Origin: an uncultured Gammaproteobacteria bacterium
GTDB taxonomy: Bacteria; Patescibacteriota; Microgenomatia; Daviesbacterales; UBA10151
Direction: 5' to 3'
Assembly (NCBI GenBank): GCA_964500725.1
Contig: CAZCNP010000004.1
Coordinates: 12,139 to 76,138, forward strand
DNA: 64,000 nucleotides
Below the pieces are notes generated by a model that ran no database searches, was not told the origin of the DNA, and was given only the letters and a program-made list of their open reading frames with translations. Of the stretch, positions 15,826 to 55,342 are shown in pieces. The position numbers were made by a program, and so were the translations under genes. The first letter of the stretch is position 1; the number at the start of each line of letters is the position of its first letter.

Positions 15826-18800
15826 TCAAGAAGAAACATATTCATCCCAGCTTTTGATTTGTAGATCTTCCATCTTTTTGGAAGCTAATGCTGAAGCTAA
15901 AAGTTCTGCTGCTTGTAAATTGGTAATAAGTGGTATACCTAAATCAACACAATTTCTTCTGATAATATACCCTTCTGTTTCCCCCATAGCTTGCTTTCCT
16001 TCAGATATATTTATTACCAAATCTATTCCCTCCTTTAAAAGATCCAAAACTGAAGGATGTTGATCTTCAAAAATCTTATAGATTCTGTTATTTTTAACAC
16101 CATTTTCAGTTAAAAACTTTGAGGTATGCTCTGTGGCATATATCTTTAACCCTAGACTTGCTAACACCTTAGCAGAAGCTAGCAAATCTAGCTTGTTTTT
16201 ATCTCCTCCAATTGATAAAAGAACCGAATTTTTAGGCATTTTAAAACCTGTTGCCAAAATTGCCTTCAAATACCCTTCTTGTAAATCATCCCCAAAACAA
16301 GCAACTTCTCCCGTGGAAGACATCTCTACCCTAAGCCTTGGATCTGCTCCTTTGATTCTACTAAAAGAAAACTGGGGTGCTTTTACACCTACATAATCTA
16401 AATCTATGGTTTTAAAATCACCTTTTATCTCTTCTCCTAACATAACCCTGGTTGCTAGCTCTACAAAATTATAGCCTGTGACTTTGGAGACAAATGGAAA
16501 AGAACGAGATGCTCTCAAATTCAGCTCTATCACCATGATTTTATTATCTTTGGCTAAAAACTGAATATTAAATGGGCCATTAATTTCTAAGGCTTTTAAA
16601 ATTTTTCTGGTAGCATTTTTCACTCTTCTAACAGTCTCCAGATATAATCTTTGAGGAGGCAGAACAATGGTTGCATCCCCTGAATGCACACCAGCATTTT
16701 CTACATGTTCAGAAATGGCATAAATTAACAAATCCCCTTTTACCCCTACTCCATCAACCTCAATTTCTTTAGCACCCTCTACGAATTTAGATATCACCAC
16801 AGGATGTTCGGTAGATATATCTGAAGCGCTTTTGAGAAACTTTTTCAACTCAGTAGCAGCATAGGCCACATTCATAGCAGATCCTGATAAAACATATGAG
16901 GGTCTAATTAGCACTGGATAGCCTATTTTTTTGGCAAAGGAAGCTGCATCCTCAACACTTTTTAGGCTTTGCCAGGCTGCTTGATCTATTCCTAATTTAT
17001 CCAAAAGCTTGGAGAACTTATCCCTATCTTCTGCCTGATCAATACTCTGAGCAGAGGTGCCTAGGATTTTATAGCCTGTCTGAAAACACTTCATAGCCAA
17101 ATTATTTGGCACTTGTCCGCCAAAACCTAAAACCAAACTAGCATCTTTTTCTATATCATAAATATCACTAACCCTCTCGTAGGTTAGCTGCTCAAAGTAT
17201 AGCTTATCTGCGCTATCATAATCTGTAGAAACTGTTTCAGGATTACAGTTGATAATAATGGTTTCTAGACCCTTAGAACGCAATGTTTGCGCACAAGTCA
17301 CAGAACACCAGTCAAATTCTACGGATGAACCAATTCTGTAAGGTCCAGAGCCTAAAACAATAGCCTTGTTAGTAGGCTCTTGCTTTTGCTCGCTTACCTC
17401 TGATTTATCTCCATGATAAGTTAAATACAAATAATTAGTTTTTGCTGGATATTCTCCTGCTAAAGTATCAATATGTTTTACCTGAGGAACTATTCCATGC
17501 TTTTTCCGATAATCTCTTATTTCCTGCTCACTTTTTTTGAACTTTCTGGCTATTACTTTATCTGAAAATCCCAACTTCTTTGCTTCCAGAATGGTTTTAT
17601 AGATGTTGGCTTTTAGCTGTTGGCTTTTAGCTGCTAATGGCAAATGGCCAATAGCCAGTAGCTCCCTCTCAAACTCGACCATCTCCTTAATTTGGTGTAA
17701 AAACCATGGATCAATACCTGTTGCTTCATAGATACTATCTACTGACTCCCCTTTTTCAAACCTTTTGGCTATTGCAAACAGTCTCTCTGTGGTAGGCAGC
17801 AGTTTAGTATCATCTACCTCATTTTCCAGCAGTCCATCCTGCCCAGTCTCCAACATTCTAATTGCTTTTTGCAAAACCTCAGGAAAACTTCTGCCTATTG
17901 CCATAACTTCTCCTACACTTTTCATTTCAGAACCTATTTGCTGTCTGGCTCCCACAAATTTTTGCAAATCCCATCTGGGAATTTTTACCACGATATAATC
18001 CAAACTTGGTTCAAAAAATGCAGAAGTCGATAAAGTCACACTGTTTTTTAACTCAGTTAGGTTGTAACCTAAACCAATTTTGGCAGCAATATAAGCCAGT
18101 GGATACCCGGTAGCTTTTGAGGCCAAAGCAGAAGAACGAGATAGCCTGGCATTAACTTCAATCACTCTATAGTCATTATTTGCAGGATTTAGGGCAAATT
18201 GAATATTACACTCTCCTATAATCCCTAGATGTTCAATTACTTGTAGGGAAAGTTTTCGCAAATAATAATACTGATAACTATTCAAGGTCTGTGAAGGCGC
18301 AACTACAATGCTTTCTCCTGTATGAATCCCCAGAGGATCAAAATTTTCCATGTTACAAACAGTAATTTTATTGCCTTGATTGTCCCTGACAACTTCATAT
18401 TCTATTTCTTTCCAATGCTTTAGATACTCCTCAACAGCAATTTGTGGGGCTTGTTTTAAAGCCAGTGCTACCATTTTGACAAATTCATCTTTACTATTTG
18501 CCACCCCAGACCCTAATCCCCCTAAAGAAAACCCTGATCTGATCAAAAGCGGATACCCCAGCTCCTCAGCAATCTTTAAAGCTTCATCAAGCGTGCGGGC
18601 AAATCCACCTTTTGGAACTTTAACCCTGATATTGCCAAGTTCGCGGGCAAACAGCTCTCTATCTTCGGTAATTTGGATACTTTTTACAGAAGAGCCTAAC
18701 ACTTTAATATTCCATTTTTTAAATACACCCATCTTATCCAAAGCCAACCCGCAATTTAGAGCAGTTTGCCCTCCAAAACCTAGGAAAATTCCATCTGGTT

Positions 18801-19035
18801 TTTCTTTCTCAATTACTTTTTGCACAAAATATGGGGTGACAGGCAGGAAATAAATTTTCTTTGCAAGCTCTTTTGAGGTTTGAATGGTGGCAATATTTGG
18901 GTTTATCAAAACTGCATCTATCCCTTCTTCTCTTAAGGCTTTCAGAGCTTGCGAACCAGAATAATCAAACTCACCTGCCTCGCCAATTTTTAATGCCCCA
19001 GAACCTAAAACAAGTACTTTTTTTAGCTTAATCAT
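15826..19035 (-). CDS. carB: carbamoyl-phosphate synthase large subunit
   Basis: A 1069-aa protein with two ATP-grasp halves. The N-terminus VLVLGSGALKIGEAGEFDYSGSQA matches CarB. Confidence 0.95.
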   Translation of the reverse strand: MIKLKKVLVLGSGALKIGEAGEFDYSGSQALKALREEGIDAVLINPNIATIQTSKELAKKIYFLPVTPYFVQKVIEKEKPDGIFLGFGGQTALNCGLALDKMGVFKKWNIKVLGSSVKSIQITEDRELFARELGNIRVKVPKGGFARTLDEALKIAEELGYPLLIRSGFSLGGLGSGVANSKDEFVKMVALALKQAPQIAVEEYLKHWKEIEYEVVRDNQGNKITVCNMENFDPLGIHTGESIVVAPSQTLNSYQYYYLRKLSLQVIEHLGIIGECNIQFALNPANNDYRVIEVNARLSRSSALASKATGYPLAYIAAKIGLGYNLTELKNSVTLSTSAFFEPSLDYIVVKIPRWDLQKFVGARQQIGSEMKSVGEVMAIGRSFPEVLQKAIRMLETGQDGLLENEVDDTKLLPTTERLFAIAKRFEKGESVDSIYEATGIDPWFLHQIKEMVEFERELLAIGHLPLAAKSQQLKANIYKTILEAKKLGFSDKVIARKFKKSEQEIRDYRKKHGIVPQVKHIDTLAGEYPAKTNYLYLTYHGDKSEVSEQKQEPTNKAIVLGSGPYRIGSSVEFDWCSVTCAQTLRSKGLETIIINCNPETVSTDYDSADKLYFEQLTYERVSDIYDIEKDASLVLGFGGQVPNNLAMKCFQTGYKILGTSAQSIDQAEDRDKFSKLLDKLGIDQAAWQSLKSVEDAASFAKKIGYPVLIRPSYVLSGSAMNVAYAATELKKFLKSASDISTEHPVVISKFVEGAKEIEVDGVGVKGDLLIYAISEHVENAGVHSGDATIVLPPQRLYLETVRRVKNATRKILKALEINGPFNIQFLAKDNKIMVIELNLRASRSFPFVSKVTGYNFVELATRVMLGEEIKGDFKTIDLDYVGVKAPQFSFSRIKGADPRLRVEMSSTGEVACFGDDLQEGYLKAILATGFKMPKNSVLLSIGGDKNKLDLLASAKVLASLGLKIYATEHTSKFLTENGVKNNRIYKIFEDQHPSVLDLLKEGIDLVINISEGKQAMGETEGYIIRRNCVDLGIPLITNLQAAELLASALASKKMEDLQIKSWDEYVSS

Positions 19036-20099
19036 AAGTTTTCCAAAAATTCATCAAATAAATATCCTGCATCAACTGGACCTGGGGAGGCTTCCGGGTG
19101 AAACTGAACTGCCATAAATGGCTTATTTTTATGTCTAATCCCCTCGTTTGTGCCATCATTTAGGTTAACAAACCACTCAATCCAATCTGCGCTTAAAGAA
19201 GTTGTATCAACTGCAAAACCATGATTTTGACTGGTTATGATAGCTTTTTTGCTAATTTGATCCTTTACTGGCTGATTATGACCCCTGTGACCAAATTTTA
19301 ATTTAAAAGTTTTCCCCCCAGCTGCCAAAGCAATAATTTGACTGCCTAAACAAATGCCAAAAGTGGGGATATTTTTATCTAGAAGTTTTTTAACATTTTC
19401 AATAGTTTTTTTAGCTTGCATTGGATCACCTGGACCATTTGAAACCATTACTCCATCAAACTTTAACCCCTCAGCTATAGGATCACAATCCCAAGGCACA
19501 ATTATAACCTGCACTCCCCTTTTAGTCAGGCTTCTGACAATATTTCCTTTAGTTCCACAATCTATTAAGATAATATTTTTCTTGCCGCTGCCAACAACTT
19601 CAATCTTCTCAACACTTACATTAGGCAAAACATTTTCCTTATTAGGATCATATTGAAGACGAGAATTGAATTGTCCATTTTCAATTTTCAATTTTCCATT
19701 TATTTCCATTCTTCCTAACATCACCCCATGGTCTCTTAGTTTAATAGTTAAAGCCCTGGTATCAATACCTTGCAAAGCAGGGATTTTTTCTTCTCTAAGC
19801 CAATCGCCTAAAGTTTTTTGGCTTTCAAAATGTGATAGGTTTTCAATATAATTTTGGACAATCAAACCCTTAACACGAATTTTGTTTGATTCCCAAAAAT
19901 CTTTTACTGGCACTCCATAATTTCCTTGTAAAGGATAAGTTAGAACTAAAATCTGCCCAAAATACGAAGGATCTGTCAATGATTCGGGGTAACCTACCAT
20001 TCCGGTGTTAAAAACTACCTCGCCTGAGGTGGAACCCTCAAACCCAAAACTTTGTCCTAAAAAAACTGTCCCATCGGACAGAATTAATCTACCCTGCAT
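19032..20099 (-). CDS. carA: carbamoyl-phosphate synthase small subunit (glutamine amidotransferase)
   Basis: The class I GATase triad context GICLGSQ is present, with a CarA-like N-terminal domain. The gene is translationally coupled to carB. Confidence 0.95.
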   Translation of the reverse strand: MQGRLILSDGTVFLGQSFGFEGSTSGEVVFNTGMVGYPESLTDPSYFGQILVLTYPLQGNYGVPVKDFWESNKIRVKGLIVQNYIENLSHFESQKTLGDWLREEKIPALQGIDTRALTIKLRDHGVMLGRMEINGKLKIENGQFNSRLQYDPNKENVLPNVSVEKIEVVGSGKKNIILIDCGTKGNIVRSLTKRGVQVIIVPWDCDPIAEGLKFDGVMVSNGPGDPMQAKKTIENVKKLLDKNIPTFGICLGSQIIALAAGGKTFKLKFGHRGHNQPVKDQISKKAIITSQNHGFAVDTTSLSADWIEWFVNLNDGTNEGIRHKNKPFMAVQFHPEASPGPVDAGYLFDEFLENL

Positions 20100-27588: not shown

Positions 27589-28458
27589 CTAGCTCTGACA
27601 ACTCGGACAAAAGTATGCGCCCCTTCCGCCCAACATGGTTTTCTTAATTTCTGTGCCGCATACCTTACATTTATGCTTATCTCTGCCATAAACAAAAGCA
27701 TAATCTAAAAAGTAACCTTTATGGCCTTCTGGATCCACAAAATGAGCTCGAGTTGATCCACCTCTTGCTATTCCTTCTTTTAAAGATTTTATTATTCCCT
27801 CAAAAAGAGCTTTAAACTGCTTATCTTGCAAATCTTTTACTTTGGTCCTGGGATCAATTTTGGCATTAAAGCATGCTTCATTTGCATAAATATTACCTAC
27901 CCCTGCTACCACTGATTGATCCATAATAGCTACTTTAACTGGCTGAGATTTATGTTTTAAGAGATTTGCTTTAAGAGTTTCCCAGGAAAACCCCTTCTCC
28001 AAAGGTTCTGGCCCTAATTTTTCCAACAAATTTTCAATTATCAATTTTCCATTTTCAATTACTTTAATCCAGCCAAACTTTCTCTGGTCATTAAAATATA
28101 GGTGCGACCCATCAGAAAAAGAAAATATTACCCTGGTATGAGTATTTGGCATTGCATCAACCATGTCAGGTGTAGGATGTCCTCCAATAAACCTTTCCCC
28201 TTTACCCTTCCTGCTTTCTCCTTTCCAGATTAGTTGTCCACTCATTTTTAGATGAAATAATAGAACTTTATCATCACTTACTTCTATGCCTAAAATCTTT
28301 GCCCTTCTCCATATATTGAGTATCTTTTGTCTCTCTACTTCATTAGGATTTCCTAGGAAAAATTTTTTGGATAAAATTTGGATTTTCTGGATTTTTGTAC
28401 CAATAATCCTCTTTTGCAAACCTAGCTTAATTATTTCAACCTCAGGAAGCTCTGGCAT
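27589..28458 (-). CDS. mutM: formamidopyrimidine-DNA glycosylase (Fpg/MutM family)
   Basis: The N-terminus reads MPELPEVE. The C-terminal zinc finger is CKVCGTEIKKTMLGGRGAYFCPSCQ. Confidence 0.85.
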   Translation of the reverse strand: MPELPEVEIIKLGLQKRIIGTKIQKIQILSKKFFLGNPNEVERQKILNIWRRAKILGIEVSDDKVLLFHLKMSGQLIWKGESRKGKGERFIGGHPTPDMVDAMPNTHTRVIFSFSDGSHLYFNDQRKFGWIKVIENGKLIIENLLEKLGPEPLEKGFSWETLKANLLKHKSQPVKVAIMDQSVVAGVGNIYANEACFNAKIDPRTKVKDLQDKQFKALFEGIIKSLKEGIARGGSTRAHFVDPEGHKGYFLDYAFVYGRDKHKCKVCGTEIKKTMLGGRGAYFCPSCQS

Positions 28459-33854: not shown

Positions 33855-34988
33855 TTATGGCTTAAGGTTTTCCTCTACTAATTCCAAAATTTCTTTTTTA
33901 AATCTTTCTTTAGAAAACTTTTCTGCATTTTTTCTGCAAACTTGGGGATCAAACTTTAGGCTTTCAAATTCATGCAAAGCTTTTATTAAGCTTCCTGTAT
34001 TAACCATCCCTGGACCACCATATAACAACCCAGTCTTTTTATCTTCCACTGTTTCTAAAAATCCACCAGATGAGGGAGCAATTACTGGAGTTCCTGCAGC
34101 CTGGGCTTCTATAGAGGTAATCCCAAAATCTTCATCTTCAGCAGCTACTATTAAAGCTTTCGCATTCTGCAGTAAAGTTACCCTTTCCTCATCAGACACC
34201 CAACCTAGAAAGTTCGTAGTTCGTAGTTTGTAGTTGGTAGATAGTTGCTTCAAATTTTCCATCTCCGGGCCGGTGCCTACTACTTTCAAGGGTAAACCTA
34301 ATCTACCGCAAGCTTCAACTACTACATCCGCCCCTTTTCCTCTAACCAATCTACTTAGTACTAAAAAGTAATTTTCCTTCCCCCTTTCCCCTTTATTCTT
34401 TACCCTAAATTCAGACAGATCAACAGGAGGATATATCACTACACTATCTCTTCTGTAAAACTTTTTAATCCTTTTTTGAATATTGTTAGAATTAGCCACT
34501 AATATATCTGGTCTTTGGGAAACTTCAAAATCATAAATTCTTAGAAAATGATTAGCCAACTCCCCTAAGACTCTAGTAACAGGGTTTTTCTTATAGTTAA
34601 AAGAGGTGACATAACCATATAAAAATCTAGGAGGGGTATGAATGTAGCTAATATGTAAAGTTTCTGGTTTGGTTATAACTGCCTTTGCTAGATAGGCTGC
34701 AGAGGAGGAAGAAATCACCAAATCAAACTCTCCCAAATCAAAGCTTTCAAACATCATGGGAGCAAACAACCTAAAAGGAGATAATAATTTATTTGCAAAA
34801 GGGAATTTCTGAAACCAGGAAGTCCTAATATCCCAACTTTTAAATCTTTTGCCATTCTCACCTAAACTCTCAGGGTTATAATAGGCAGTAAAAATGGGAG
34901 CTTCAGGGAAAATATCATGCAGAGCTTCCAATACCCTCTCAGCTCCCCCATATTCCCTTAAATAATCATGTGCCAACGCTACTTTCAT
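33855..34988 (-). CDS. glycosyltransferase family 4 (GT-B fold)
   Basis: The C-terminal GT4 signature EDFGITSIEAQAAGTPVIA is present. The gene carries an in-frame heptamer-repeat insertion at 34211-34247. Confidence 0.8.
   Translation of the reverse strand: MKVALAHDYLREYGGAERVLEALHDIFPEAPIFTAYYNPESLGENGKRFKSWDIRTSWFQKFPFANKLLSPFRLFAPMMFESFDLGEFDLVISSSSAAYLAKAVITKPETLHISYIHTPPRFLYGYVTSFNYKKNPVTRVLGELANHFLRIYDFEVSQRPDILVANSNNIQKRIKKFYRRDSVVIYPPVDLSEFRVKNKGERGKENYFLVLSRLVRGKGADVVVEACGRLGLPLKVVGTGPEMENLKQLSTNYKLRTTNFLGWVSDEERVTLLQNAKALIVAAEDEDFGITSIEAQAAGTPVIAPSSGGFLETVEDKKTGLLYGGPGMVNTGSLIKALHEFESLKFDPQVCRKNAEKFSKERFKKEILELVEENLKP
34211..34247. repeat. tandem heptamer repeat (AGTTNGT)x5 inside the GT4 gene, in frame
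   Basis: The sequence is agttcgt agttcgt agtttgt agttggt agatagt. It shares an identical 23-mer with the trpS gene (48757-48779). Confidence 0.8.
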
Positions 34989-34992
34989 AATT

Positions 34993-35060
34993 AGTGGCTA
35001 GTCGCTAGAGTCTAGAATCAAGCTTGAATTTATTTTCCTAGACTCTTAACTCTAGTCACT
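34993..35060. repeat. short palindromic repeat element (MITE/REP-like), intergenic copy
   Basis: The 5' arm agtggctagtcgctagagtctag and the 3' arm ctagactcttaactctagtcact are imperfect inverted repeats. The 20-mer agtggctagtcgctagagtc is identical to 37723-37742 inside polA. Confidence 0.7.
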
Positions 35061-35863
35061 TAACCCTCCTTTACTGCTTCAATTAATTGCTCAAAACTTA
35101 ATCTAGTTGGTTTGCTATCTGGAGCAGAAGATGAACCACAAATTACCATGTGGTGTGATTGGTGTAGAAACCATGAAGCCTCGGAATCTAACTCTTTTAC
35201 CCTTGTATAAATAGCTTCTATATCTTTATTTGGAGCAAAAAATTGAACTGAGGTATATTTTGGATCATACATTAAATAAAGATCCCCACCCTGCTCCCTG
35301 CAAAATTCCCTATCTACTGTTTCAGAAGAAACTGCAAAAGACTTACCAAATTTGGATTCAAACTCAACCCTTTTTTCCCAATCAATAATTGACTGTTCTC
35401 TCTTTTTCAAAACTTCCAAAATTCTATTTAAGATCTCCTCTCCTAACTCTACCGACTTTAAAGAAGACTCACTAGAATTATCTTTAGTTCTGATAAATGA
35501 TTGAATACTAAACTCATCAAATTGAGAATCTGGAGCTTTTCCTGTATCAATCAATTTATTCCACTCCACCAATTTTTCTAAAGCCTTTTGGGCAATCCCT
35601 TCAGGAATATAGCCTTCTTGTTTTAAATACTCATAAACCAAAGATCCAGCACAGGTTAGCAAACCTTCTTTATGTTCATCAAATTTACCTCCCCCAGTTC
35701 CTAAAAATATTTTGTCTTCATTTTCCTCTTTAGCTGCCAGGTCACGTGATGCAGAAACAAATTCTATTTTTGCCTCTTTAAAATCAGGATGATATTTTTT
35801 AAAAAGCCAAATAGCAGCAATATCATCCAGGTGAGGGTTAATATGTGTAACTAAGGTTTTCAT
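35060..35863 (-). CDS. hypothetical protein (weak DHH-phosphoesterase-like N-terminal motif)
   Basis: The N-terminus THINPHLDDIAAIW resembles DHH motif I. The assignment is not confident. Confidence 0.3.
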   Translation of the reverse strand: MKTLVTHINPHLDDIAAIWLFKKYHPDFKEAKIEFVSASRDLAAKEENEDKIFLGTGGGKFDEHKEGLLTCAGSLVYEYLKQEGYIPEGIAQKALEKLVEWNKLIDTGKAPDSQFDEFSIQSFIRTKDNSSESSLKSVELGEEILNRILEVLKKREQSIIDWEKRVEFESKFGKSFAVSSETVDREFCREQGGDLYLMYDPKYTSVQFFAPNKDIEAIYTRVKELDSEASWFLHQSHHMVICGSSSAPDSKPTRLSFEQLIEAVKEG

Positions 35864-35894
35864 ATATGTATAATGATACTATCTTAATTTTACC

Positions 35895-36827
35895 ATGCTC
35901 ATACTCAAAAAGCTTATTCTTGCCCCTTTTTTTGCAATTATTTTTGCTCTCTTAATTTATCAGCTTACCAGCTTATTAAAGTCTTACGATTTTGTTTTTT
36001 CTTTATCTTTAAACACTTTTACTAGTCTACTGATTCTGTCTGCTTTAATTTGTCTTTCAAGTTTTTTATTTATTCTATTTGCATCTTTATCGCAAGATTT
36101 AAAAATCACCCTACCGGCTACTTTACTCTTTGCTTTGATACCTTTAATCTTTTTGGATATATCTTTGGCATTAGTTTTGGTTGTGGCAATTTTTGTAAGT
36201 TTACTGCTCGCTAGTTTAAATTTAGCTACTAGTTTGAAAAGTTATTTAACCTTCCAGGCTGGAGATTTACTTGGACCTGCTATTAGACATTTATCAGGCT
36301 TTTTGATTTTATCTTTTTGTATAGTTTATTTTTTATCCTCCAGCAAATTAGTTAGTCAAAATGGATTTCAGATCCCCGATTCTTTAATTGATACTGCCTT
36401 AAAATTTAGTATGCCTGCAATCCCCAATAATCAACTTGATCAAGTACAAACAAGCCTTCCTCAAATCACCCCAGAACAACTAGATCTTTTAAAACAAAAC
36501 CCCGATTTACTAAGACAATCTGGTTTGGATCCTAAAATCCTGGATAGTTTAAGCAACCCACAAAAAAATACTCAATCACCAGCAAATTTAACCAATGACC
36601 TGATTAAACAAACAGTCAAGGATCAGATACAAGGCTTTTTAAAACCCTATCTAAGCTTTATTCCTGCAATTTTAGCAGTCCTGCTTTTTTTAACACTTCA
36701 ATCATTTACTTCTATTATCAATCTTCTAATCTATCCACTTCTCTCAGGAACATTTTATATTTTAGAAAAGTCAGGATTTATCAGGTATGAAACAGAACAA
36801 AGACCAGTCAAAAAAATGGTAGTTTAA
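35895..36827 (+). CDS. hypothetical polytopic membrane protein
   Basis: A 310-aa protein with several transmembrane helices and a Q/P-rich loop. Confidence 0.45.
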   Translation: MLILKKLILAPFFAIIFALLIYQLTSLLKSYDFVFSLSLNTFTSLLILSALICLSSFLFILFASLSQDLKITLPATLLFALIPLIFLDISLALVLVVAIFVSLLLASLNLATSLKSYLTFQAGDLLGPAIRHLSGFLILSFCIVYFLSSSKLVSQNGFQIPDSLIDTALKFSMPAIPNNQLDQVQTSLPQITPEQLDLLKQNPDLLRQSGLDPKILDSLSNPQKNTQSPANLTNDLIKQTVKDQIQGFLKPYLSFIPAILAVLLFLTLQSFTSIINLLIYPLLSGTFYILEKSGFIRYETEQRPVKKMVV

Positions 36828-37270
36828 CCGAACTTTCTAACTAACCTTTTTTTAAACACTGTCTCAAAATCATTATCAAAAGTAGCAAAATATTTAATTT
36901 GATTTTCTCTCATCATAAATAGATGATAAGCATCCCTGGCCCTAAGCTGATATTTTTCCATTAATTTTAGTACTTTTGTTTGTTTTTTAAGCTCAAGTGT
37001 AGAGTGAACTAAATTGATATTCTTAAGTTTCTTAATTTTGCCAAAACCTTTTTTCAAATCCTGTAATGCCTCCTTTTTAGGAAATTGAGAAAATCTTAAA
37101 GCATTATGGAAATATTCATCTAATACTAGCGCGGAAATAAATAATGCCCAATTCTGCAGTAAAAGACTAGATATTAATTCTACCGTCTTTTCGTGAAGCT
37201 CCGCAGACGGATTGGTAAAGTATAATAAAATATTAGTGTCAAGATAGCATTTTTTCATATCTCTCTTCAT
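36824..37270 (-). CDS. vapC: PIN-domain toxin VapC
   Basis: The N-terminus reads CYLDTNILLYF and a C-terminal FATFDNDF motif is present. Confidence 0.8.
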   Translation of the reverse strand: MKRDMKKCYLDTNILLYFTNPSAELHEKTVELISSLLLQNWALFISALVLDEYFHNALRFSQFPKKEALQDLKKGFGKIKKLKNINLVHSTLELKKQTKVLKLMEKYQLRARDAYHLFMMRENQIKYFATFDNDFETVFKKRLVRKFG

Positions 37271-37517
37271 ACCTTCTATCCAGCTCTTCCTTAATTTCTT
37301 CAGGGGTCAGATTTGATTTCAATCTAAGACCTACTGCCAAACTTCTAACAAATTTTCTAATTTCCTCTTCCCTATTTTTTTTCTTTCGTTTCAATATAAT
37401 ATTTCCCTGCTTTGCTTCAATTTTCATTTTTTGCCCAGGTTTAATCCCTAACTCCTTGGGTAAAGTTACCACAATAGAAGAACCAAGTTGAAAAGCTGTC
37501 ACTTCATCTTTTATCAT
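37239..37517 (-). CDS. AbrB/MazE-type (SpoVT/AbrB fold) antitoxin
   Basis: A 92-aa protein overlapping the downstream PIN gene. The N-terminus EVTAFQLGSSIVVTLPKELGIKPGQ is a swapped-hairpin-like segment. Confidence 0.6.
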   Translation of the reverse strand: MIKDEVTAFQLGSSIVVTLPKELGIKPGQKMKIEAKQGNIILKRKKKNREEEIRKFVRSLAVGLRLKSNLTPEEIKEELDRRYEERYEKMLS

Positions 37518-37550
37518 ATATATAATATTATCATTTTGATATATATCAAG

Positions 37551-39731
37551 TCAAATTGTAAGTGGCTTCATTTCTCCCCAATTAGGACCAATCTTGAGAT
37601 CAACTATTACTGGCACAGAAAGTTTTAGAGCATTTTCCATTTTATCTTTAACCATTTTGGCAGTCTCTTCTACAGATTTAGGATCACATTCAAATAACAG
37701 CTCATCATGAACCTGGAGGATCATCTGACAGGAGTGGCTAGTCGCTAGAGTCGAGAGTCTAGGAGGGGTATTTTCTTGACTCTTGACTCTAGACTCTAGA
37801 CTCTTATCTATTTCCACCATGGCTTTTTTGATCATGTCAGCGCTCGTCCCTTGAATGGGCATATTGACTGCTGCCCTTTCCCCTGCTGCTTTTAAGCTTC
37901 TATTGCCTACCTTTAGTTCTGGAATATATCTTCTTCTGCCCCAGAGAGTTTCTACATAGCCTTTTTCATATCCAAAAGCTAAAGTTTCCTGCATCCATTC
38001 CCTAACTTTGGGAAACTTTAAAAAATACTCAGCAATATATTCTCTGGCCATTTCATAGCTAATACCCAACTGTCTAGATAAAGCATGTGGGCCCTGTCCA
38101 TATAAAGTAGCAAAATTGATTGTTTTTCCTATCATTCTTTGCTGTCTTGTTACCTCATCTATTGGTACATTAAAAATATTGGCAGCAGTTGCAGCATGCA
38201 CATCCAACTCCTGCTCAAAGGCCTTTTTCAAACCTGGATCATCTGCCAAATGTGCCATAATCCTCAGCTCGATTTGGGAATAATCAGCTGCCAGCAAAAT
38301 TTTACCTTTGGGAGCTATAAAAGCTTTTCTAATTTCTCCTCCCATCTCACCTTTAATAGGGATGTTCTGCATGTTCGGATCTTTAGAAGAGAGCCTGCCT
38401 GTGGCTGCCCCTTCTACATTAAAGGTAGAATGGATTCTTCCTTTTTCGTCTGTATACTTTGGCAAAGCATCAATATAGGTGGAAACCAGCTTGAATAGCT
38501 GTCTGTATTCTAAAAGCAAAGGTATTACAGGATGAGCAGCAGATAGTTCATGCAGAGTAGCTTCATCTGTAGAACGGCCTGTTTTAGTCTTTCTTACTAC
38601 TGTTAAATTTAACTCATCAAAAAGTATCTCTGATAACTGCTTTGGACTGTTTATATTAAACTGATGTCCTACTTTTGAGTAAATATCTTGTTCTAAATCA
38701 ACTAATTTATCCTTTAGCTGCTTGCCAAACTTATTTAAAAACTTAAGGTCTATCAATACTCCAGCAGCAGACATTTTTTGCAAAACTTGTTCTACCTGCT
38801 TATCTAATTTAGCTGTCGCTGACAACTCCTCTTTGACAGCAGGCGTTTGATGTGTAAGAGCTGTTCCGCCAGGAATCCTTTCTATTAAGCTTTTAAATTC
38901 TAGCTCCTCAAATAATTTAATAACTTCCTGCTTGTCAAAATCATGCACTATACATTTTTCTAAATCCAAGCTTATAGGGGCTTTTAGATCTAAAGTCGCT
39001 AATTTTTTGCTAAGGGTTGCAGACTCTGCCCCTTCTGCCAATAGAGTCTGCGTTCTTTGGGGCAAAGTCTGTAGATTTTCTGCCTTATAAATTTCCTCTA
39101 CAGTCCCAAATTGGTGTATTAACTTGGTGGCTGTCACCTCTCCAATCCCATTTACCCCAGGAATATTATCTGAAGCATCTCCTGCTAAGCCTTTGTAATC
39201 CACCAGTTGCTTAGGAAAAAAGCCATACTTGGCAACAAATTCTTCTACTCCATACAAACCTACATCGTTAATAGTTTTTTTAGGCATAAATACCTTAATT
39301 TTTTTATCTATAAGCTGCATAATATCCCTATCACCTGTTACTACCACAATCTCTAAATTTTTATCTTTGTCTGCTTGAATAGCTAGTGTGCCAATTAAAT
39401 CATCTGCCTCAAAGCCTGCCAGGCTAAATTCGGGGATATTAAAGGCTTTGACTACTTCATGAACTCTTTTGTATTGGTTGAATAATCCATCATCTGCAGG
39501 ACCTCTAGTGGCTTTATATTGAGTATATGCCTGATGTCTGAAAGTAGGCCCTTTTTCATCCCAGGCAATGGCAATATATTCTGGATGCAGGTCTGAAACT
39601 ACCCGCAAAAGCATGGAAGAAAATCCATAAACAGCATTAACTAACTCCCCTGTTGAGGTAGTAAAAGGAGGTGTAGCATGATATGCCCTGTGAAGCAGGG
39701 CATTTCCATCAACCAAAACCAGTCTTTGCAT
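37551..39731 (-). CDS. polA: DNA polymerase I (5'-3' exonuclease plus polymerase domains)
   Basis: The N-terminus reads LVLVDGNALLHRAYHA. Motif C reads QVHDELLFE. The protein is 726 aa and carries an in-frame repeat-element insertion just before motif C. Confidence 0.95.
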   Translation of the reverse strand: MQRLVLVDGNALLHRAYHATPPFTTSTGELVNAVYGFSSMLLRVVSDLHPEYIAIAWDEKGPTFRHQAYTQYKATRGPADDGLFNQYKRVHEVVKAFNIPEFSLAGFEADDLIGTLAIQADKDKNLEIVVVTGDRDIMQLIDKKIKVFMPKKTINDVGLYGVEEFVAKYGFFPKQLVDYKGLAGDASDNIPGVNGIGEVTATKLIHQFGTVEEIYKAENLQTLPQRTQTLLAEGAESATLSKKLATLDLKAPISLDLEKCIVHDFDKQEVIKLFEELEFKSLIERIPGGTALTHQTPAVKEELSATAKLDKQVEQVLQKMSAAGVLIDLKFLNKFGKQLKDKLVDLEQDIYSKVGHQFNINSPKQLSEILFDELNLTVVRKTKTGRSTDEATLHELSAAHPVIPLLLEYRQLFKLVSTYIDALPKYTDEKGRIHSTFNVEGAATGRLSSKDPNMQNIPIKGEMGGEIRKAFIAPKGKILLAADYSQIELRIMAHLADDPGLKKAFEQELDVHAATAANIFNVPIDEVTRQQRMIGKTINFATLYGQGPHALSRQLGISYEMAREYIAEYFLKFPKVREWMQETLAFGYEKGYVETLWGRRRYIPELKVGNRSLKAAGERAAVNMPIQGTSADMIKKAMVEIDKSLESRVKSQENTPPRLSTLATSHSCQMILQVHDELLFECDPKSVEETAKMVKDKMENALKLSVPVIVDLKIGPNWGEMKPLTI
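37723..37796. repeat. short palindromic repeat element, intragenic in-frame copy within polA
   Basis: The 20-mer matches 34993-35012 exactly. Palindromic arms are built from ctagactc/gagtctag units. The element encodes an extra segment, roughly RVKSQENTPPRLSTLATSHS, in the PolA protein. Confidence 0.7.
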
Positions 39732-42328: not shown

Positions 42329-42984
42329 TTTTGGACTCTTTCCGAAAGCACAGTTTTTTCCACTTCATTTAAAGCCGAGGACGAAGCTTCTTTAGCTAAA
42401 AAAGCACAGCTTTGCAATTGATATTTGCTAATCTTATCAGTCAAATGTGGTTTACTCAACTCAGTTAATTTATCAATTAGCTCTTTGTTCCATAAAGAAA
42501 CCCTGTTGACAGTAGATCTAATAGCCATTCTAGCCCGTTTATCTGAAACCTGATTGTAGATTGATTGCAACACACTCATTTGCTCATTTATTCTCCCTGT
42601 TACCTTCTCTATAGCTACCTCGTCTCTGATATTAATCATGCCTTTTAACTCTTGCAGGTGAAATAAATAGCGAATAAGAGTTGGTTCAATCAAATCCTGA
42701 CGAGCTTCAACTAAGCTTTTTGCCTCTCTTATTCTACGTGTGGCAAATTCCATTTGTCTGTAAGCTTTAATTTGACCGTTTCCAGCAAATTGCAGTTCAA
42801 ATATTTCCCTGACTGATTTTAAAAAATATAAAGGTGAAGCTGGAGTAATCTTTGACTCACCAATTGAATCAACTTGGGCATAAGCTGGAGTAATGTAAAA
42901 TGTAAAATGTAAAATGTAAAATGTAAAAAGCAGTAAAACCAATCTAATTGTAAATTGTACATTGTAAATTGTAAATTTTCTCAT
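42307..42984 (-). CDS. secreted hypothetical protein (DUF5667-like)
   Basis: A signal peptide is present. The motif SPLYFLKSVRE is typical of a family common in Patescibacteria. The 5' end of the gene contains heptamer tandem repeats. Confidence 0.4.
   Translation of the reverse strand: MRKFTIYNVQFTIRLVLLLFTFYILHFTFYITPAYAQVDSIGESKITPASPLYFLKSVREIFELQFAGNGQIKAYRQMEFATRRIREAKSLVEARQDLIEPTLIRYLFHLQELKGMINIRDEVAIEKVTGRINEQMSVLQSIYNQVSDKRARMAIRSTVNRVSLWNKELIDKLTELSKPHLTDKISKYQLQSCAFLAKEASSSALNEVEKTVLSERVQKCLILKP
42893..42977. repeat. heptamer tandem arrays (ATGTAAA)x5 and (ATTGTAA)x4
   Basis: The sequence runs aatgtaaaatgtaaaatgtaaaatgtaaaatgtaaaa ... attgtaaattgtacattgtaaattgtaaatt. It overlaps the signal-peptide codons of the 42307..42984 gene and lies downstream of the ABC exporter gene. 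Confidence 0.85.
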
Positions 42985-44814: not shown

Positions 44815-44846
44815 TTTAAATTGTAAATTATAAATTTTAAATTTCT
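44815..44846. repeat. TGTAAAT-like heptamer repeat tract
   Basis: The tract ttttaaattgtaaattataaattttaaattt is related to the array at 42947-42977. It sits on the other side of the ABC exporter gene. Confidence 0.6.
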
Positions 44847-48528: not shown

Positions 48529-49524
48529 TTATTTAAAGTAGTCAAGTTTCATGGCCTTTTTAACTTCAGCCAAAGTCTTTTGGGCTTCTGCCCGGGCTTT
48601 GTCAGTTCCCTCTTTTAATATCTTTTCTACCAATTCTGGCTGGGTTTCATATTCAGCTCTCTTTTTTCTAATTGGATCCAAGAAATTATTTAAAACTTGG
48701 ACTAGATATTTTTTTACCTCAATATCCCCTACTTGGCCCCTTGAGTAAAGTAGTTTGTAGTTCGTAGTTTGTAGTTGGTCGCTCTCAGACCCAAAAGCAT
48801 CAAGATATATAAAAACAGGGTTTCCCTCTACATGTCCTGGGTCTGTAGCTTTTATTCTAGTAGGGTCTGTATACATACTCATCACTTTTTTTTCTACTTC
48901 CTCAGTTGAATCAGTTAAAAAAATGGCATTATTTAAAGATTTTCCCATTTTAGCTTGGCCATCTATACCTGGTAAAGTTGGCACCTCCCCTATCAAAGGT
49001 TCAGGGATAGGAAAAACTTCTCCATAAGTGCTATTAAACTTAATGGCAATATCCCTAGCATATTCCACATGAGCTTTTTGGTCTTTTCCTACAGGCACTA
49101 GATTAGCCCGAGGAAGCAAAATATCTGCAGCCATTAAAACTGGGTAATAAAATAAACCCACAGTATCTTCAGACCCTTGGTCTAATTTTTCCTTTAAAGC
49201 AGGCTGCCTGGCAATCAAAGCTCTAGGGGTTAAAACACTTAAAAAATAAGCCAGCTCTAACACTTCTGGAACTTGGGATTGGATAAAAAAGGTAACTTTA
49301 TTAGGATCTAACCCCACAGATAAATACCCTAACATCAATCCTTTAATATTTTCTTCCAGCTGATCTGCTTTATTAAAATGAGTAGTCAGAGCATGGAGAT
49401 CTACCAAGGGTATAAACATTTCATACTCATCTTGCAGTTTAACCCTATTTTTTAAAGAACCAATGTAATTACCCAGATGAAAACTATCATTGGTAGGCCT
49501 ATCCCCTGTTAAAATCCGTTTCAT
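48529..49524 (-). CDS. trpS: tryptophan--tRNA ligase
   Basis: A class I HIGH-like signature TGDRPTNDSFHLGNYIG is present, with the KMGKS-like KMGKSLNNA. It contains an in-frame heptamer-repeat insertion. Confidence 0.95.
   Translation of the reverse strand: MKRILTGDRPTNDSFHLGNYIGSLKNRVKLQDEYEMFIPLVDLHALTTHFNKADQLEENIKGLMLGYLSVGLDPNKVTFFIQSQVPEVLELAYFLSVLTPRALIARQPALKEKLDQGSEDTVGLFYYPVLMAADILLPRANLVPVGKDQKAHVEYARDIAIKFNSTYGEVFPIPEPLIGEVPTLPGIDGQAKMGKSLNNAIFLTDSTEEVEKKVMSMYTDPTRIKATDPGHVEGNPVFIYLDAFGSESDQLQTTNYKLLYSRGQVGDIEVKKYLVQVLNNFLDPIRKKRAEYETQPELVEKILKEGTDKARAEAQKTLAEVKKAMKLDYFK
48749..48780. repeat. tandem heptamer repeat (AGTTNGT)x4 inside trpS, in frame
   Basis: The sequence is agtagtttgtagttcgtagtttgtagttggtc. 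A 23-mer is identical to GT4 gene positions 34216-34238. It encodes the segment ...QLQTTNYKLLYS.... Confidence 0.8.
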
Positions 49525-54056: not shown

Positions 54057-55342
54057 ATCTTTTTTCTAAACTGCTCGTAGCTTGTTAAAACTGGAGTATG
54101 TTCTGAAGTTTGATATTCCTGCTTAACTAAAATCTTGGTATCATCTTTTATGTCTTGATGCAACACTACCCCAGGGCCTACTAAAGAATTTGATCCCACT
54201 CTAACGCCTGGCATAGTGGAAGCATTTACTCCAATCCTGGCTCCCCTGCCAGCTATTAAGCCTAATTTATTCCTGCCTGTATCAATTTTTTGTTCAGCAA
54301 CTTTTATTGTTTGGTTATCTAACCTTAAATTTGCCAGCACAGCTCCGGAGCCCATCCCAAAATCCCCTTCTATAACCGAATCACCAATATAGTTGGTGTG
54401 AAACCAGCAATTTGCTCCAATATAGCTCCTAGTAATATCAGAGTTAAAACCAGTTACACAGCCTGCTTCTAAATCAACTTCTCTGATCATTGAGTTATTG
54501 CCCACAATACAATTTTTTCCAATATATGCAGGCCCTTTTATAGCTGCTCCTTCAAAAACCTTTGCCCCCTCCTCTATGATTACTTTACCCTCTATAATAG
54601 CTTTACTGGACACCTTAGCCCCTGGGGATATTTCTTGCTCAACCTGGGATAAAAAGTAAGTTGTAATATCTAAAATATGCCAGGGATATTTTAGAGGAAG
54701 CCATACCCCGCTATACTTGGCAAATCTGACTTTCAACCCATCTTGAATCATTTGATCCAAGGCCACCTCATACACATCATCTTTGCTGCTTTTAGCTTTT
54801 TGTAAATAATTTATAAGCTGTTGGCCATCTTTAAAGTAGTCAACCACTAATTTAACTAAATCTGAGGGCTCATTTCCTTCCCCTGGCTTTTCTACTATAC
54901 CCTCTACCCTATCCCCTAAACCCTTTTTTATATACCCTCCGGGAAAATACTTTTTAACTTGTAATCCTGTCAGGACTATATCTGCCTCTTGAACATTTAC
55001 AACTCCCTCAAATATTTTAGGCTCTATGACATCTTCCGCATTTATTATTACAAGTTCTCCGTCTAGCAAATCTTTGGCAGACAGTATTGCATCAGACATA
55101 CCTGTAGGCTCATTTTGCAGTCTAATCTGAAACTTCAGATTCAAGCTTTGAGCAATCTCGGCAATTGCCCCTTTGCTGCTTTCTTTGGTCACAATAATAA
55201 ATTGGTCAAAATTAGCTATTTGAGAGAGATGTTTTAAGTTGTGGTAAATCAGAGGTTGTCCTAAAAATGGCAGCAGGTATTTTTCTTCAACAATAGGCCA
55301 CATTCTCTTACCCTCCCCTGCTGCCAAAACCAAAATTTGCAT
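54053..55342 (-). CDS. sugar-phosphate nucleotidyltransferase with a C-terminal left-handed beta-helix (GlmU-like two-domain protein)
   Basis: The N-terminal NTP-transferase motif [13 protein letters not shown] is present. The C-terminal half has hexapeptide repeats. Confidence 0.7.

What the first reader, a model, noticed from the sequence alone, without database searches (positions are those of the whole stretch)
37723..37796. polA in-frame palindromic insertion preceding motif C
The nucleotide repeat encodes ...SLESRVKSQENTPPRLSTLATSHSCQMILQVHDELL, whereas E. coli has only ~14 residues between the corresponding Asp and Gln. The insertion preserves the frame and the polymerase motifs.
Basis: partly seen in the sequence, partly recalled or inferred. 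Interest (0 to 1): 0.55.

Follow-up and report, generated by a model that had tools for sequence, protein, structure and literature searches.

The report
Hairpin repeat carried inside polA
A 75-base hairpin-forming repeat, also found between genes and inside other genes of related bacteria, sits in frame in a tolerant surface loop of DNA polymerase I of a Daviesbacteria (CPR) genome, and related species hold a dozen different such repeats at the same spot.

Summary
polA (37551..39731, minus strand, 726 aa) carries an in-frame segment of about 72 nt (37731-37802, SLESRVKSQENTPPRLSTLATSHS) just before motif C (QVHDE). It adds 18 aa relative to Taq Pol I and 21 aa relative to the shortest orthologues. 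It folds as a hairpin: 30-nt arms, 12-nt loop, RNA z-score -3.65. Each arm is a run of four 7-nt units (GAGTCTA/GAGTCAA).

It is not a polA oddity. It belongs to a dispersed repeat family. A second copy fills the intergenic spacer at 34991-35067. Other copies lie in frame in polA and gyrA, or between genes, in other Daviesbacteria assemblies.

Among 118 orthologous PolA proteins the same loop is hypervariable, with 0-26 extra residues and at least 12 unrelated insert types. Of 35 long inserts, 89% fold as hairpins and 30 show a 7-nt period.

The arms are conserved as nucleotides: third-codon-position identity is 0.85-0.93, against 0.51 in the flanking gene.

Best reading: tolerated, selfish-looking palindromic DNA in a permissive loop. 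It resembles Rickettsia palindromic elements, with the heptanucleotide-repeat build described in Geobacter, Nostoc and Xanthomonas. How it spreads is unknown. I rate it a new variant of a known kind, of moderate interest.

The parts
37551..39731 (-). polA, 726 aa: 5' nuclease domain, short linker and family-A polymerase domain. No 3'-5' exonuclease-like domain.
   Evidence: ORF; Pfam domains; alignment to Taq (Taq 285-431 corresponds to query 286-307); 100% identical to P0001, Candidatus Daviesbacteria.
37730..37805 (-). Palindromic repeat element ('family A'), translated in frame as residues 644-667.
   Evidence: nhmmer hit at 37805..37730, E = 5.5e-22; translation; hairpin.
37775..37804 (-). 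5' arm in mRNA sense: four heptanucleotide units (GAGTCTA x2, GAGTCAA x2), encoding KSLESRVKSQ.
37763..37774 (-). Hairpin loop, A-rich in the sense strand (AAAATACCCCTC), encoding ENTP.
37733..37762 (-). 3' arm (CTAGACTCTCGACTCTAGCGACTAGCCACT), encoding PRLSTLATSH. It contains the family signature GACTCTAGCGACTAGC.
37701..37715 (-). Motif C codons (QVHDE), intact, starting 5 codons downstream of the insert.
34991..35067 (-). Second, untranslated copy of the same element. It fills the 71-nt spacer between the stop of 35060..35863(-) and the ATG of 33855..34988(-).
   Evidence: E = 8e-18; stop codons in all three sense frames.
17600..17660 (-). In-frame hairpin of a different family in carB (ELLAIGHLPLAAKSQQLKA). 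It is the same family that occupies the polA loop in L024.

Best explanation
The segment is a copy of a dispersed palindromic repeat of about 75 nt. Its two arms are each about four heptanucleotide units, around a loop that is A-rich in the sense strand. It lies in frame in a permissive loop of PolA, between helix Q and the beta-strand that carries motif C. It is transcribed and most likely translated, as a short extension of helix Q followed by a disordered surface loop, leaving the catalytic core intact.

Shown: the family is multi-copy and occurs between genes and in frame in other essential genes. Its arms are conserved at the nucleotide level regardless of codon position. Only one sense reading frame of the element is free of stop codons, and every coding copy uses that frame. 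The same PolA loop holds many unrelated hairpin or heptamer inserts in related species.

Inferred: copies arrive by insertion, or by copying from other genomic copies. Only arrivals that are in frame, stop-free and in a tolerant loop survive. Heptamer slippage then changes arm length, and deletions leave half-elements. The element is neutral or selfish rather than useful to PolA. The enzyme or process that spreads the copies is not identified.
For: Multi-copy family: the 16-mer GACTCTAGCGACTAGC occurs twice in the window, against 0.27 expected even with 3 mismatches allowed. nhmmer finds the family in the polA loops of L004, L009, L018 and L045, in the L045 polA linker, in the window's intergenic copy and in 12 metagenome contigs (E from 1e-11 to 1e-22). 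Four of those contigs carry it in frame in gyrA.

Nucleotide-level conservation: identity by codon position is 0.82/0.82/0.93 in the 5' arm and 0.85/0.82/0.85 in the 3' arm, against 0.81/0.87/0.51 in the flanking polA. Overall insert identity is 76-87%, against 69-81% in the flanks.

No simple vertical pattern: carriers of this family are no closer in PolA than random orthologue sets (0.236 against 0.229). The four closest relatives carry other inserts.

Hotspot: among 118 orthologues the loop has 0-26 extra residues and at least 12 recurrent insert types. Of 35 long inserts, 89% have MFE z < -2, against 4% of control polA segments, and the best direct-repeat period is 7 in 30 of 35.

Frame filter: the polA copy is open in only one of the three sense frames, and the intergenic copy in none. 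The coding copies in polA and gyrA all read ..L(S/L)TLATS...

Protein tolerance: in the AlphaFold2 model (mean pLDDT 83.2), helix 611-652 runs into the insert, residues 656-665 have pLDDT < 50, and strand 668-674 follows. The model matches Taq, Bst and Pol1 structures.

Genome-wide habit: there are 6 stringent period-7 tandem repeats in the window against 0.0 in shuffles, and none at any other period from 4 to 14. They encode loop insertions in carA (+9 aa) and fpg (+14 aa).
Against: No insertion event was caught. I saw no target-site duplication, and no closely related empty/filled pair. No transposase (IS200/IS605, RAYT or other) is encoded by the 52 window ORFs scanned against Pfam. Within family A there are no compensatory base-pair changes (0 of 19 pairs), so selection on the hairpin itself is not shown. 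High arm identity could also come from purifying selection on a function I did not find. The PolA phylogeny is nearly star-like (mean pairwise distance 0.229, sd 0.029), so the test of vertical against repeated acquisition is weak. Translation and enzyme activity were not tested. Only one assembly holds this exact sequence.
Confidence: 0.72

Rival explanations
1. The insert arose on the spot, with no mobility. Replication slippage built a heptanucleotide array in the loop. A fold-back (template-switch) event then copied it in inverted orientation, producing the hairpin.
For: Some orthologues have plain tandem heptamer arrays with no inverted arm at this site (L023, L030, L033, L041, L026, L044). 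Heptamer copy number varies between copies of the same family (3 to 9 or more units). Period-7 repeats are the only enriched tandem-repeat period in the window. Published work links the excess of heptamer repeats in bacteria to polymerase slippage (PMC4692102).
Against: The same sequence, not merely the same architecture, recurs at unrelated sites: an intergenic spacer, the polA linker and gyrA, in several genomes (nhmmer E from 1e-11 to 1e-22). Third-position identity of 0.85-0.93 between lineages whose flanking third positions are 0.51 identical is not what independent local origins would give. Slippage probably does shape arm length after arrival, so this idea partly overlaps the best explanation.
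Confidence: 0.15
2. The hairpin or its peptide is functional for polA. It might be an mRNA structure that sets stability, processing or ribosome pausing before motif C. Alternatively, the added loop might modulate the polymerase or bind a partner.
For: Among the 35 orthologous DNA loci with a long insert, 89% fold significantly. The arms are conserved at the nucleotide level. Intergenic copies often abut start codons, 0-4 nt away in four distinct loci, which hints at some RNA-level role for the family.
Against: 24 of 118 orthologues have a near-minimal loop (4 or fewer extra residues) and 30 more have only 5-9 extra, so the insert is dispensable. Insert types are unrelated in sequence and peptide. 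The same families sit in other genes. There is no covariation, no Rfam match and no terminator-like site. The peptide region is predicted to be disordered.
Confidence: 0.1
3. It is an assembly or amplification artefact, such as a chimeric fold-back read assembled into the MAG.
For: Only one assembly (GCA_016198315.1, JACQIW010000017.1) carries this exact gene. Palindromes are a known product of some amplification chemistries (my own knowledge).
Against: The insert is in frame and stop-free in the one frame that allows it. Homologous inserts occur at the same site in five independent assemblies. A second copy lies 2.7 kb away.
Confidence: 0.03

Closest known systems
Rickettsia palindromic elements (RPE; Ogata et al. 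2000 and Claverie & Ogata 2003, cited from my own knowledge and not read here)
   Same: A dispersed palindromic repeat found both between genes and in frame inside conserved protein genes.
   Different: The host lineage is different (Daviesbacteria, CPR). The element is shorter, about 75 nt. Its arms are built of 7-nt tandem units. Many unrelated families compete for the same codon position. No sequence relationship to RPEs was tested or is expected.
Multicopy heptanucleotide-repeat elements: Geobacter metallireducens (four or five tandem heptamers, 49 intergenic and intragenic sites; PMC2700814), Xanthomonas/Nostoc GGGAATC-type arrays including inverted pairs (PMC4692102), and cyanobacterial STRR (my own knowledge)
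   Same: Units of 7 nt repeated about four times. Multicopy. Found within genes as well as between them. Some occur as inverted pairs able to form stem-loops. Length varies between relatives.
   Different: The unit sequences differ (GAGTCWA here). Here the two arrays form one compact hairpin that is read through by the ribosome in essential enzymes. The published cases were mostly treated as intergenic regulatory or G-quadruplex elements.
REP / BIME / REPIN elements (PMC3733652, PMC3116915)
   Same: Short imperfect palindromes in many copies per genome. The window's second copy sits between two co-directional genes, as REPs do.
   Different: REPs are extragenic, carry a GTAG or CGTC head, and are tied to a RAYT transposase. 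Here copies lie inside genes, no such head was seen, and no RAYT gene is present in the window.
Coding palindromes in Nematomorpha mitochondrial genes (PMC6649704)
   Same: Inverted repeats embedded in protein-coding sequence, with both arms translated.
   Different: Those are long (up to 284 bp), perfect and organellar. They are not a dispersed family shared between loci.

Membership tests
In-frame palindromic repeat elements of the RPE kind | Repeat family with several copies per genome or lineage | tested here: met
   There are 2 copies in 64 kb. Copies also occur in 4 other polA loci, one polA linker and 12 metagenome contigs.
In-frame palindromic repeat elements of the RPE kind | Palindromic; able to form a stem-loop | tested here: met
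   30-nt arms, 77% complementary. MFE z-score is -3.65 and -5.74 for the core.
In-frame palindromic repeat elements of the RPE kind | Inserted in frame in conserved protein genes, always in the permitted frame | tested here: met
   Copies in the polA loop, the polA linker and gyrA are all read as ..LSTLATS... The other sense frames contain stops.
In-frame palindromic repeat elements of the RPE kind | Insertion lies in a surface segment and leaves the fold intact | tested here: inconclusive
   In the AF2 model the insert is a helix extension plus a loop with pLDDT < 50, and the flanking elements are confident. The overall fold matches Pol I structures. Solvent exposure was not computed and activity was not tested.
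In-frame palindromic repeat elements of the RPE kind | Sequence homology to the named Rickettsia RPE families | not tested
   No RPE sequences were available to compare. I therefore file this as 'works like', not as a member.
Heptanucleotide tandem-repeat elements | Tandem units of 7 nt, three or more copies | tested here: met
   TRF reports period 7, 4.6 copies, 92% matches. In-register copies are shown. Only period 7 is enriched in the window, 6 against 0.0 expected.
Heptanucleotide tandem-repeat elements | The same unit recurs at several loci | tested here: met
   GAGTCWA arrays occur at the second window copy and in the metagenome copies, with 3 to 9 or more units.
REP/REPIN (RAYT-mobilised) | Extragenic location | tested here: not met
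   The copy under study and several others lie inside ORFs.
REP/REPIN (RAYT-mobilised) | Associated RAYT / IS200-IS605-type transposase gene | tested here: inconclusive
   None was found in the 52 window ORFs scanned against Pfam. However, 64 kb is only part of the genome.
MITE | Terminal inverted repeats flanked by a target-site duplication | tested here: inconclusive
   The arms act as inverted repeats. No duplication is evident at the junctions, and no closely related empty site was available to define the ends.
Family-A DNA polymerase (PolA) | Full DNA_pol_A domain with motif C QVHDE, plus the 5' nuclease domains | tested here: met
   PF00476 matches 3-381 of 381 at E = 2.9e-148, with PF02739 and PF01367 also present. 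Motif C is confirmed.

The most novel reading that the evidence does not exclude
Daviesbacteria, and perhaps other Microgenomates, carry a diverse and undescribed population of heptamer-armed hairpin elements. These repeatedly enter, replace one another and decay at a few fixed codon positions of essential enzymes (PolA, GyrA, CarB, Fpg and others). This implies either a hairpin-targeted or site-preferring copying mechanism with no recognisable transposase, or a lineage-specific mutational process. It would be a steady source of new disordered loops in otherwise streamlined CPR proteomes.
Probability: 0.3. Interest if true: 0.7.

Novelty: new variant of a known kind. Interest (0 to 1): 0.5.

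Why it matters
The case shows that an essential replication and repair enzyme in a genome-reduced CPR bacterium tolerates, and keeps acquiring, repeat DNA a few codons from its catalytic aspartate.

Across 118 natural variants it maps three insertion-tolerant sites in a compact Pol I that lacks an exonuclease domain. That is useful for engineering loops or tags into family-A polymerases.

It also warns annotators that odd low-complexity peptides in CPR proteins (..LSTLATS.., ..IPAKAGI.., ..VIASEAKQS..) are translated repeat elements rather than lineage-specific motifs.

If the turnover at one codon reflects targeting rather than selection alone, it points to a way of spreading small hairpins that has not been characterised.

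Tried and rejected
1. Peptide-level survey of host proteins for the element. A doubled 56-aa peptide gave 8 candidates and no scoring hit. A 30-aa phmmer search of 1.84 billion representatives gave 0 hits at E <= 0.001. Short peptides lack the statistical power, so the DNA pattern scan was used instead.

2. Rfam scan of 34900-38000 at E <= 1 found nothing. The terminator scan found nothing.

3. Covariation within the family: 0 of 19 pairs show compensatory change, so there is no structural-selection argument from this family alone.

4. Search for a mobilising enzyme. Pfam scans of 52 window ORFs found housekeeping genes and several toxin-antitoxin pairs, but no transposase.

5. Phage origin. 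The 20-mer signature is absent from IMG/VR. The bare heptamer array GAGTCWA x3 occurs in 16 viral contigs of very different G+C content (0.31-0.58). One of them has a near-perfect heptamer-armed hairpin (L096), but these are not the same element.

6. A first neighbour-joining run timed out. Distance clustering and permutation tests replaced it.

7. Literature searches found no description of such elements in CPR/Patescibacteria; 'heptamer' has zero occurrences in the 12 listed of the 52 matching CPR papers.

8. I considered the idea that pure heptamer arrays are open in all three frames and so insert freely. I dropped it because the real arms are open in only one frame.

Full report
**What is there.** The window comes from a Candidatus Daviesbacteria MAG (GCA_016198315.1, contig JACQIW010000017.1). 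The minus-strand ORF 37551..39731 encodes a 726-aa PolA. All three Pfam domains match full-length or nearly so: the two 5'-nuclease domains and the family-A polymerase domain (PF00476, 3-381 of 381, E = 2.9e-148).

Window 37731-37802(-) translates to SLESRVKSQENTPPRLSTLATSHS, and 37701-37715(-) translates to QVHDE. Against Taq Pol I the query has 14 + 4 = 18 extra residues at this point.

The DNA is an inverted repeat with arms at 37733-37762 and 37775-37804 (30 nt, 77% complementary) and 12 nt between them. As RNA it folds at -41 kcal/mol, z = -3.65 against dinucleotide shuffles.

In the sense strand these read GAGTCTA GAGTCTA GAGTCAA GAGTCAA. TRF reports period 7, 4.6 copies and 92% matches.

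**It is a copy of a dispersed repeat.**
- An inverted-repeat scan of the whole window returned a second hairpin with the same arm sequence at 34993-35060.
- The first 20 nt of the two copies are identical.
- The 16-mer GACTCTAGCGACTAGC occurs exactly twice in the window, against 0.27 expected even with three mismatches allowed.
- This second copy is not translated, since all three sense frames have stops.
- It fills the whole 71-nt spacer between the stop codon of 35060..35863(-) and the ATG of the GT4 glycosyltransferase gene 33855..34988(-).

A 20-nt signature scan of JGI metagenomes found 12 more contigs. An HMM built from seven copies recovers all of them (E from 1e-11 to 1e-22). In four of these contigs the element lies in frame in gyrA, in the loop after ..YMIEHP. 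In the others it is intergenic, and in four distinct loci it ends 0-4 nt before a start codon. One orthologue (L045) has a copy in the PolA interdomain linker as well as in the pre-motif C loop.

**The PolA loop is a hotspot.** I aligned 118 Daviesbacteria PolA orthologues, 70-82% identical to the query.
- Length variation is concentrated mainly in three places: after residue ~120, in the interdomain linker after ~295, and in this loop after ~646.
- In this loop the segment ranges from 0 to 26 extra residues. 24 proteins have 4 or fewer extra, 30 have 5-9, and 64 have 10 or more.
- The long inserts fall into at least 12 recurrent, mutually unrelated types. These include the query's ESRVKSQ..TLATS, SVVSRQSSD..KADSERSERS, VIPAKAGI..GMT, KMENGELK..FQFSTFN and LLAVSSSPLAANSQKPIAKS. 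The type ..PRNDVIASEAKQS also leaves half-elements such as SVIASEAKQS.

DNA for 62 loci was fetched from GTDB genomes. Of the 35 with long inserts, 89% have an MFE z-score below -2 (median -3.67), against 4% of length-matched control segments of the same genes. The strongest direct-repeat period is 7 nt in 30 of 35. Some short loops are plain heptamer arrays with no inverted arm, for example TGTCAAA x4 in L023.

More distant PolAs (Parcubacteria, Saccharibacteria and non-CPR phyla) have short plain loops. A 51%-identical Patescibacteria PolA (L046) again has a heptamer array at the site.

**The insert evolves as DNA, not as coding sequence.** I compared the query with the four other polA carriers of its family.
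- The insert is 76-87% identical overall, while the flanking polA DNA is 69-81% identical.
- By codon position, arm identity is 0.82/0.82/0.93 (5' arm) and 0.85/0.82/0.85 (3' arm).
- The flanking gene shows the usual coding pattern of 0.81/0.87/0.51.
- Carriers of the family are no closer to each other in PolA than random sets of orthologues (mean distance 0.236 against 0.229).
- The query's four nearest relatives (14-18% divergent) carry three other insert types.

Hence either the element arrived separately in these lineages from a conserved pool, or it is kept uniform by copying between genomic copies, or its nucleotide sequence is under direct selection. The near star-like phylogeny prevents a stronger statement. 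Within the family there are no compensatory changes.

**Evidence that it is read through.** The polA copy is open in one of the three sense frames only. That same frame (..L[S/L]TLATS[D/H]S..) is used by every coding copy in polA and gyrA. In that frame the third heptamer would give a TAG codon if it were GAGTCTA; it is GAGTCAA instead. Every orthologous locus covering this region and not interrupted by masked bases keeps both anchors in one frame. An RNA-level excision would not need these constraints.

AlphaFold2 with the 118-sequence alignment gives mean pLDDT 83.2. Helix 611-652 continues into the first ten insert residues, residues 656-665 have pLDDT < 50, and strand 668-674 follows. The model matches Taq, Bst and M. 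smegmatis Pol I structures. That the loop points away from the DNA cleft is my inference; it was not computed.

**A wider habit of this genome.**
- Stringent period-7 tandem repeats number 6 in the window against 0.0 in dinucleotide shuffles. No other period from 4 to 14 gives any.
- These arrays lie in carA, fpg, the GT4 gene, polA, a DUF5667 gene and a TrpRS/TyrRS gene.
- They correspond to loop insertions relative to solved homologues: +9 aa in carA and +14 aa in fpg.
- carB carries an in-frame hairpin of the LLA..PLAA..SQ family at about 17600-17660, the family that occupies the PolA loop in L024. So the same families sit at different sites in different genomes.
- A gene-by-gene comparison with 22 kb of the closest relative (L080) shows that several of their in-frame indels are small palindromes (CCGCCAGCTGGCGG, read as GPPAG) or heptamer runs.

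**Mechanism.** My best reading (confidence 0.72) is a selfish or neutral palindromic repeat that is tolerated in a permissive loop. It survived because it is in frame, stop-free and hydrophilic, and it was later reshaped by heptamer slippage and partial deletion.

How copies spread is unknown. I saw no target duplication, and no transposase among the 52 window ORFs scanned against Pfam. A purely local origin by slippage plus fold-back explains the architecture and the plain arrays. It does not explain the recurrence of one sequence at unrelated sites.

A function for polA is unlikely, because almost half of the orthologues lack a full insert and the insert types are unrelated. An assembly artefact is very unlikely, given five independent assemblies with homologous inserts at the same site.

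**Comparison with what is known.** In behaviour this matches Rickettsia palindromic elements, which are in-frame, single-frame and located in surface loops (my own knowledge). In build it matches the multicopy heptanucleotide-repeat elements reported inside and between genes of Geobacter metallireducens (PMC2700814) and the heptamer arrays of Xanthomonas and Nostoc (PMC4692102). It fails the REP/REPIN criteria of extragenic location and RAYT linkage (PMC3733652, PMC3116915).

I found no description of such elements in CPR bacteria in the searchable literature. I therefore rate it a new variant of a known kind. Interest is 0.5: the single insertion is ordinary once explained, but the turnover of a dozen hairpin families at one codon of an essential polymerase deserves follow-up.

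Noticed in passing
window 38811-38876 (polA residues 286-307): This PolA has no 3'-5' exonuclease or exonuclease-like domain. Taq residues 285-431 correspond to a 22-aa linker. In orthologues that linker is a second hotspot for translated repeat elements such as IPANAGIQ..LDPRLRGDD and VIASEAKQS..EIATS.
   Followed up: partly
proteins P0029 and P0072 (orthologues of window polA, at residue ~628): Two orthologues (1164 and 1153 aa) carry intein Pfam domains (PF14528 LAGLIDADG_3, PF14890 Intein_splicing). In P0029, aligned to the query, the ~418-aa insert lies at PVQG|C...N|TAADMIKK, about 15 residues upstream of the hairpin loop. P0029 also has an LLAVS-type hairpin insert in the loop.
   Followed up: partly
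window 34991-35067; also L083, L087/L092, L088: Intergenic copies of the same element end 0-4 nt before the start codon of the downstream gene, with a conserved ..AGCCACTA(A)T terminus. This leaves no room for a separate ribosome-binding site. A role in translation or mRNA stability was not tested.
   Followed up: partly
window 17600-17660 (carB, 15826..19035 minus strand): carB carries an in-frame hairpin of a different repeat family (ELLAIGHLPLAAKSQQLKA), within the span matched to the oligomerisation domain. The same family fills the PolA loop in L024.
   Followed up: partly
window 19674-19701, 28029-28060, 28192-28226, 34211-34240, 34376-34412, 42890-42977, 44817-44844, 48750-48776, 54895-54924: Heptanucleotide tandem repeats are the only enriched tandem-repeat period (6 against 0.0 expected). 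Most lie inside housekeeping genes (carA, fpg, GT4, a DUF5667 gene, TrpRS/TyrRS, a nucleotidyl-transferase gene). They encode loop insertions of +9 aa in carA and +14 aa in fpg relative to solved homologues.
   Followed up: partly
L081, L082, L086, L089 (metagenome contigs): The family-A element is in frame in DNA gyrase subunit A, after ..YMIEHP and before ..ATVEDLIQF, in at least three distinct genomes.
   Followed up: yes
window 37763-37778 and about 34640: The 14-mer ATACCCCTCCTAGA of the polA hairpin loop (NTPPRL) also occurs in the GT4 gene 3 kb away, encoding HTPPRF. By my rough estimate the chance probability is about 0.03. This could be coincidence or a template-switch patch.
   Followed up: no
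window 36824-37517 versus L080 12310-12615: A MazE-like/PIN toxin-antitoxin pair lies directly downstream of polA. In the closest relative, a 23S_rRNA_IVP-family gene occupies this position in an otherwise syntenic stretch. The window holds several more toxin-antitoxin modules: PIN, HepT/MNT, PemK and Phd.
   Followed up: no
L080 around 15190 and 17150: The closest relative carries a 12-nt mini-palindrome (CCGCCAGCTGGCGG or CCGCCATCTGGCGG, read as GPPAG or GPPSG) in frame in two different genes, at positions where the window genome has none. The same GPPAGG peptide appears in the residue-120 hotspot of some PolA orthologues.
   Followed up: no
L094-L109 (IMG/VR contigs), notably L096 9211-9232: Arrays of the same unit, GAGTCWA x3 or more, occur in 16 viral contigs with G+C from 0.31 to 0.58. 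L096 has a near-perfect hairpin with four-heptamer arms. They may be iteron-like repeats and are not the family-A element.
   Followed up: partly
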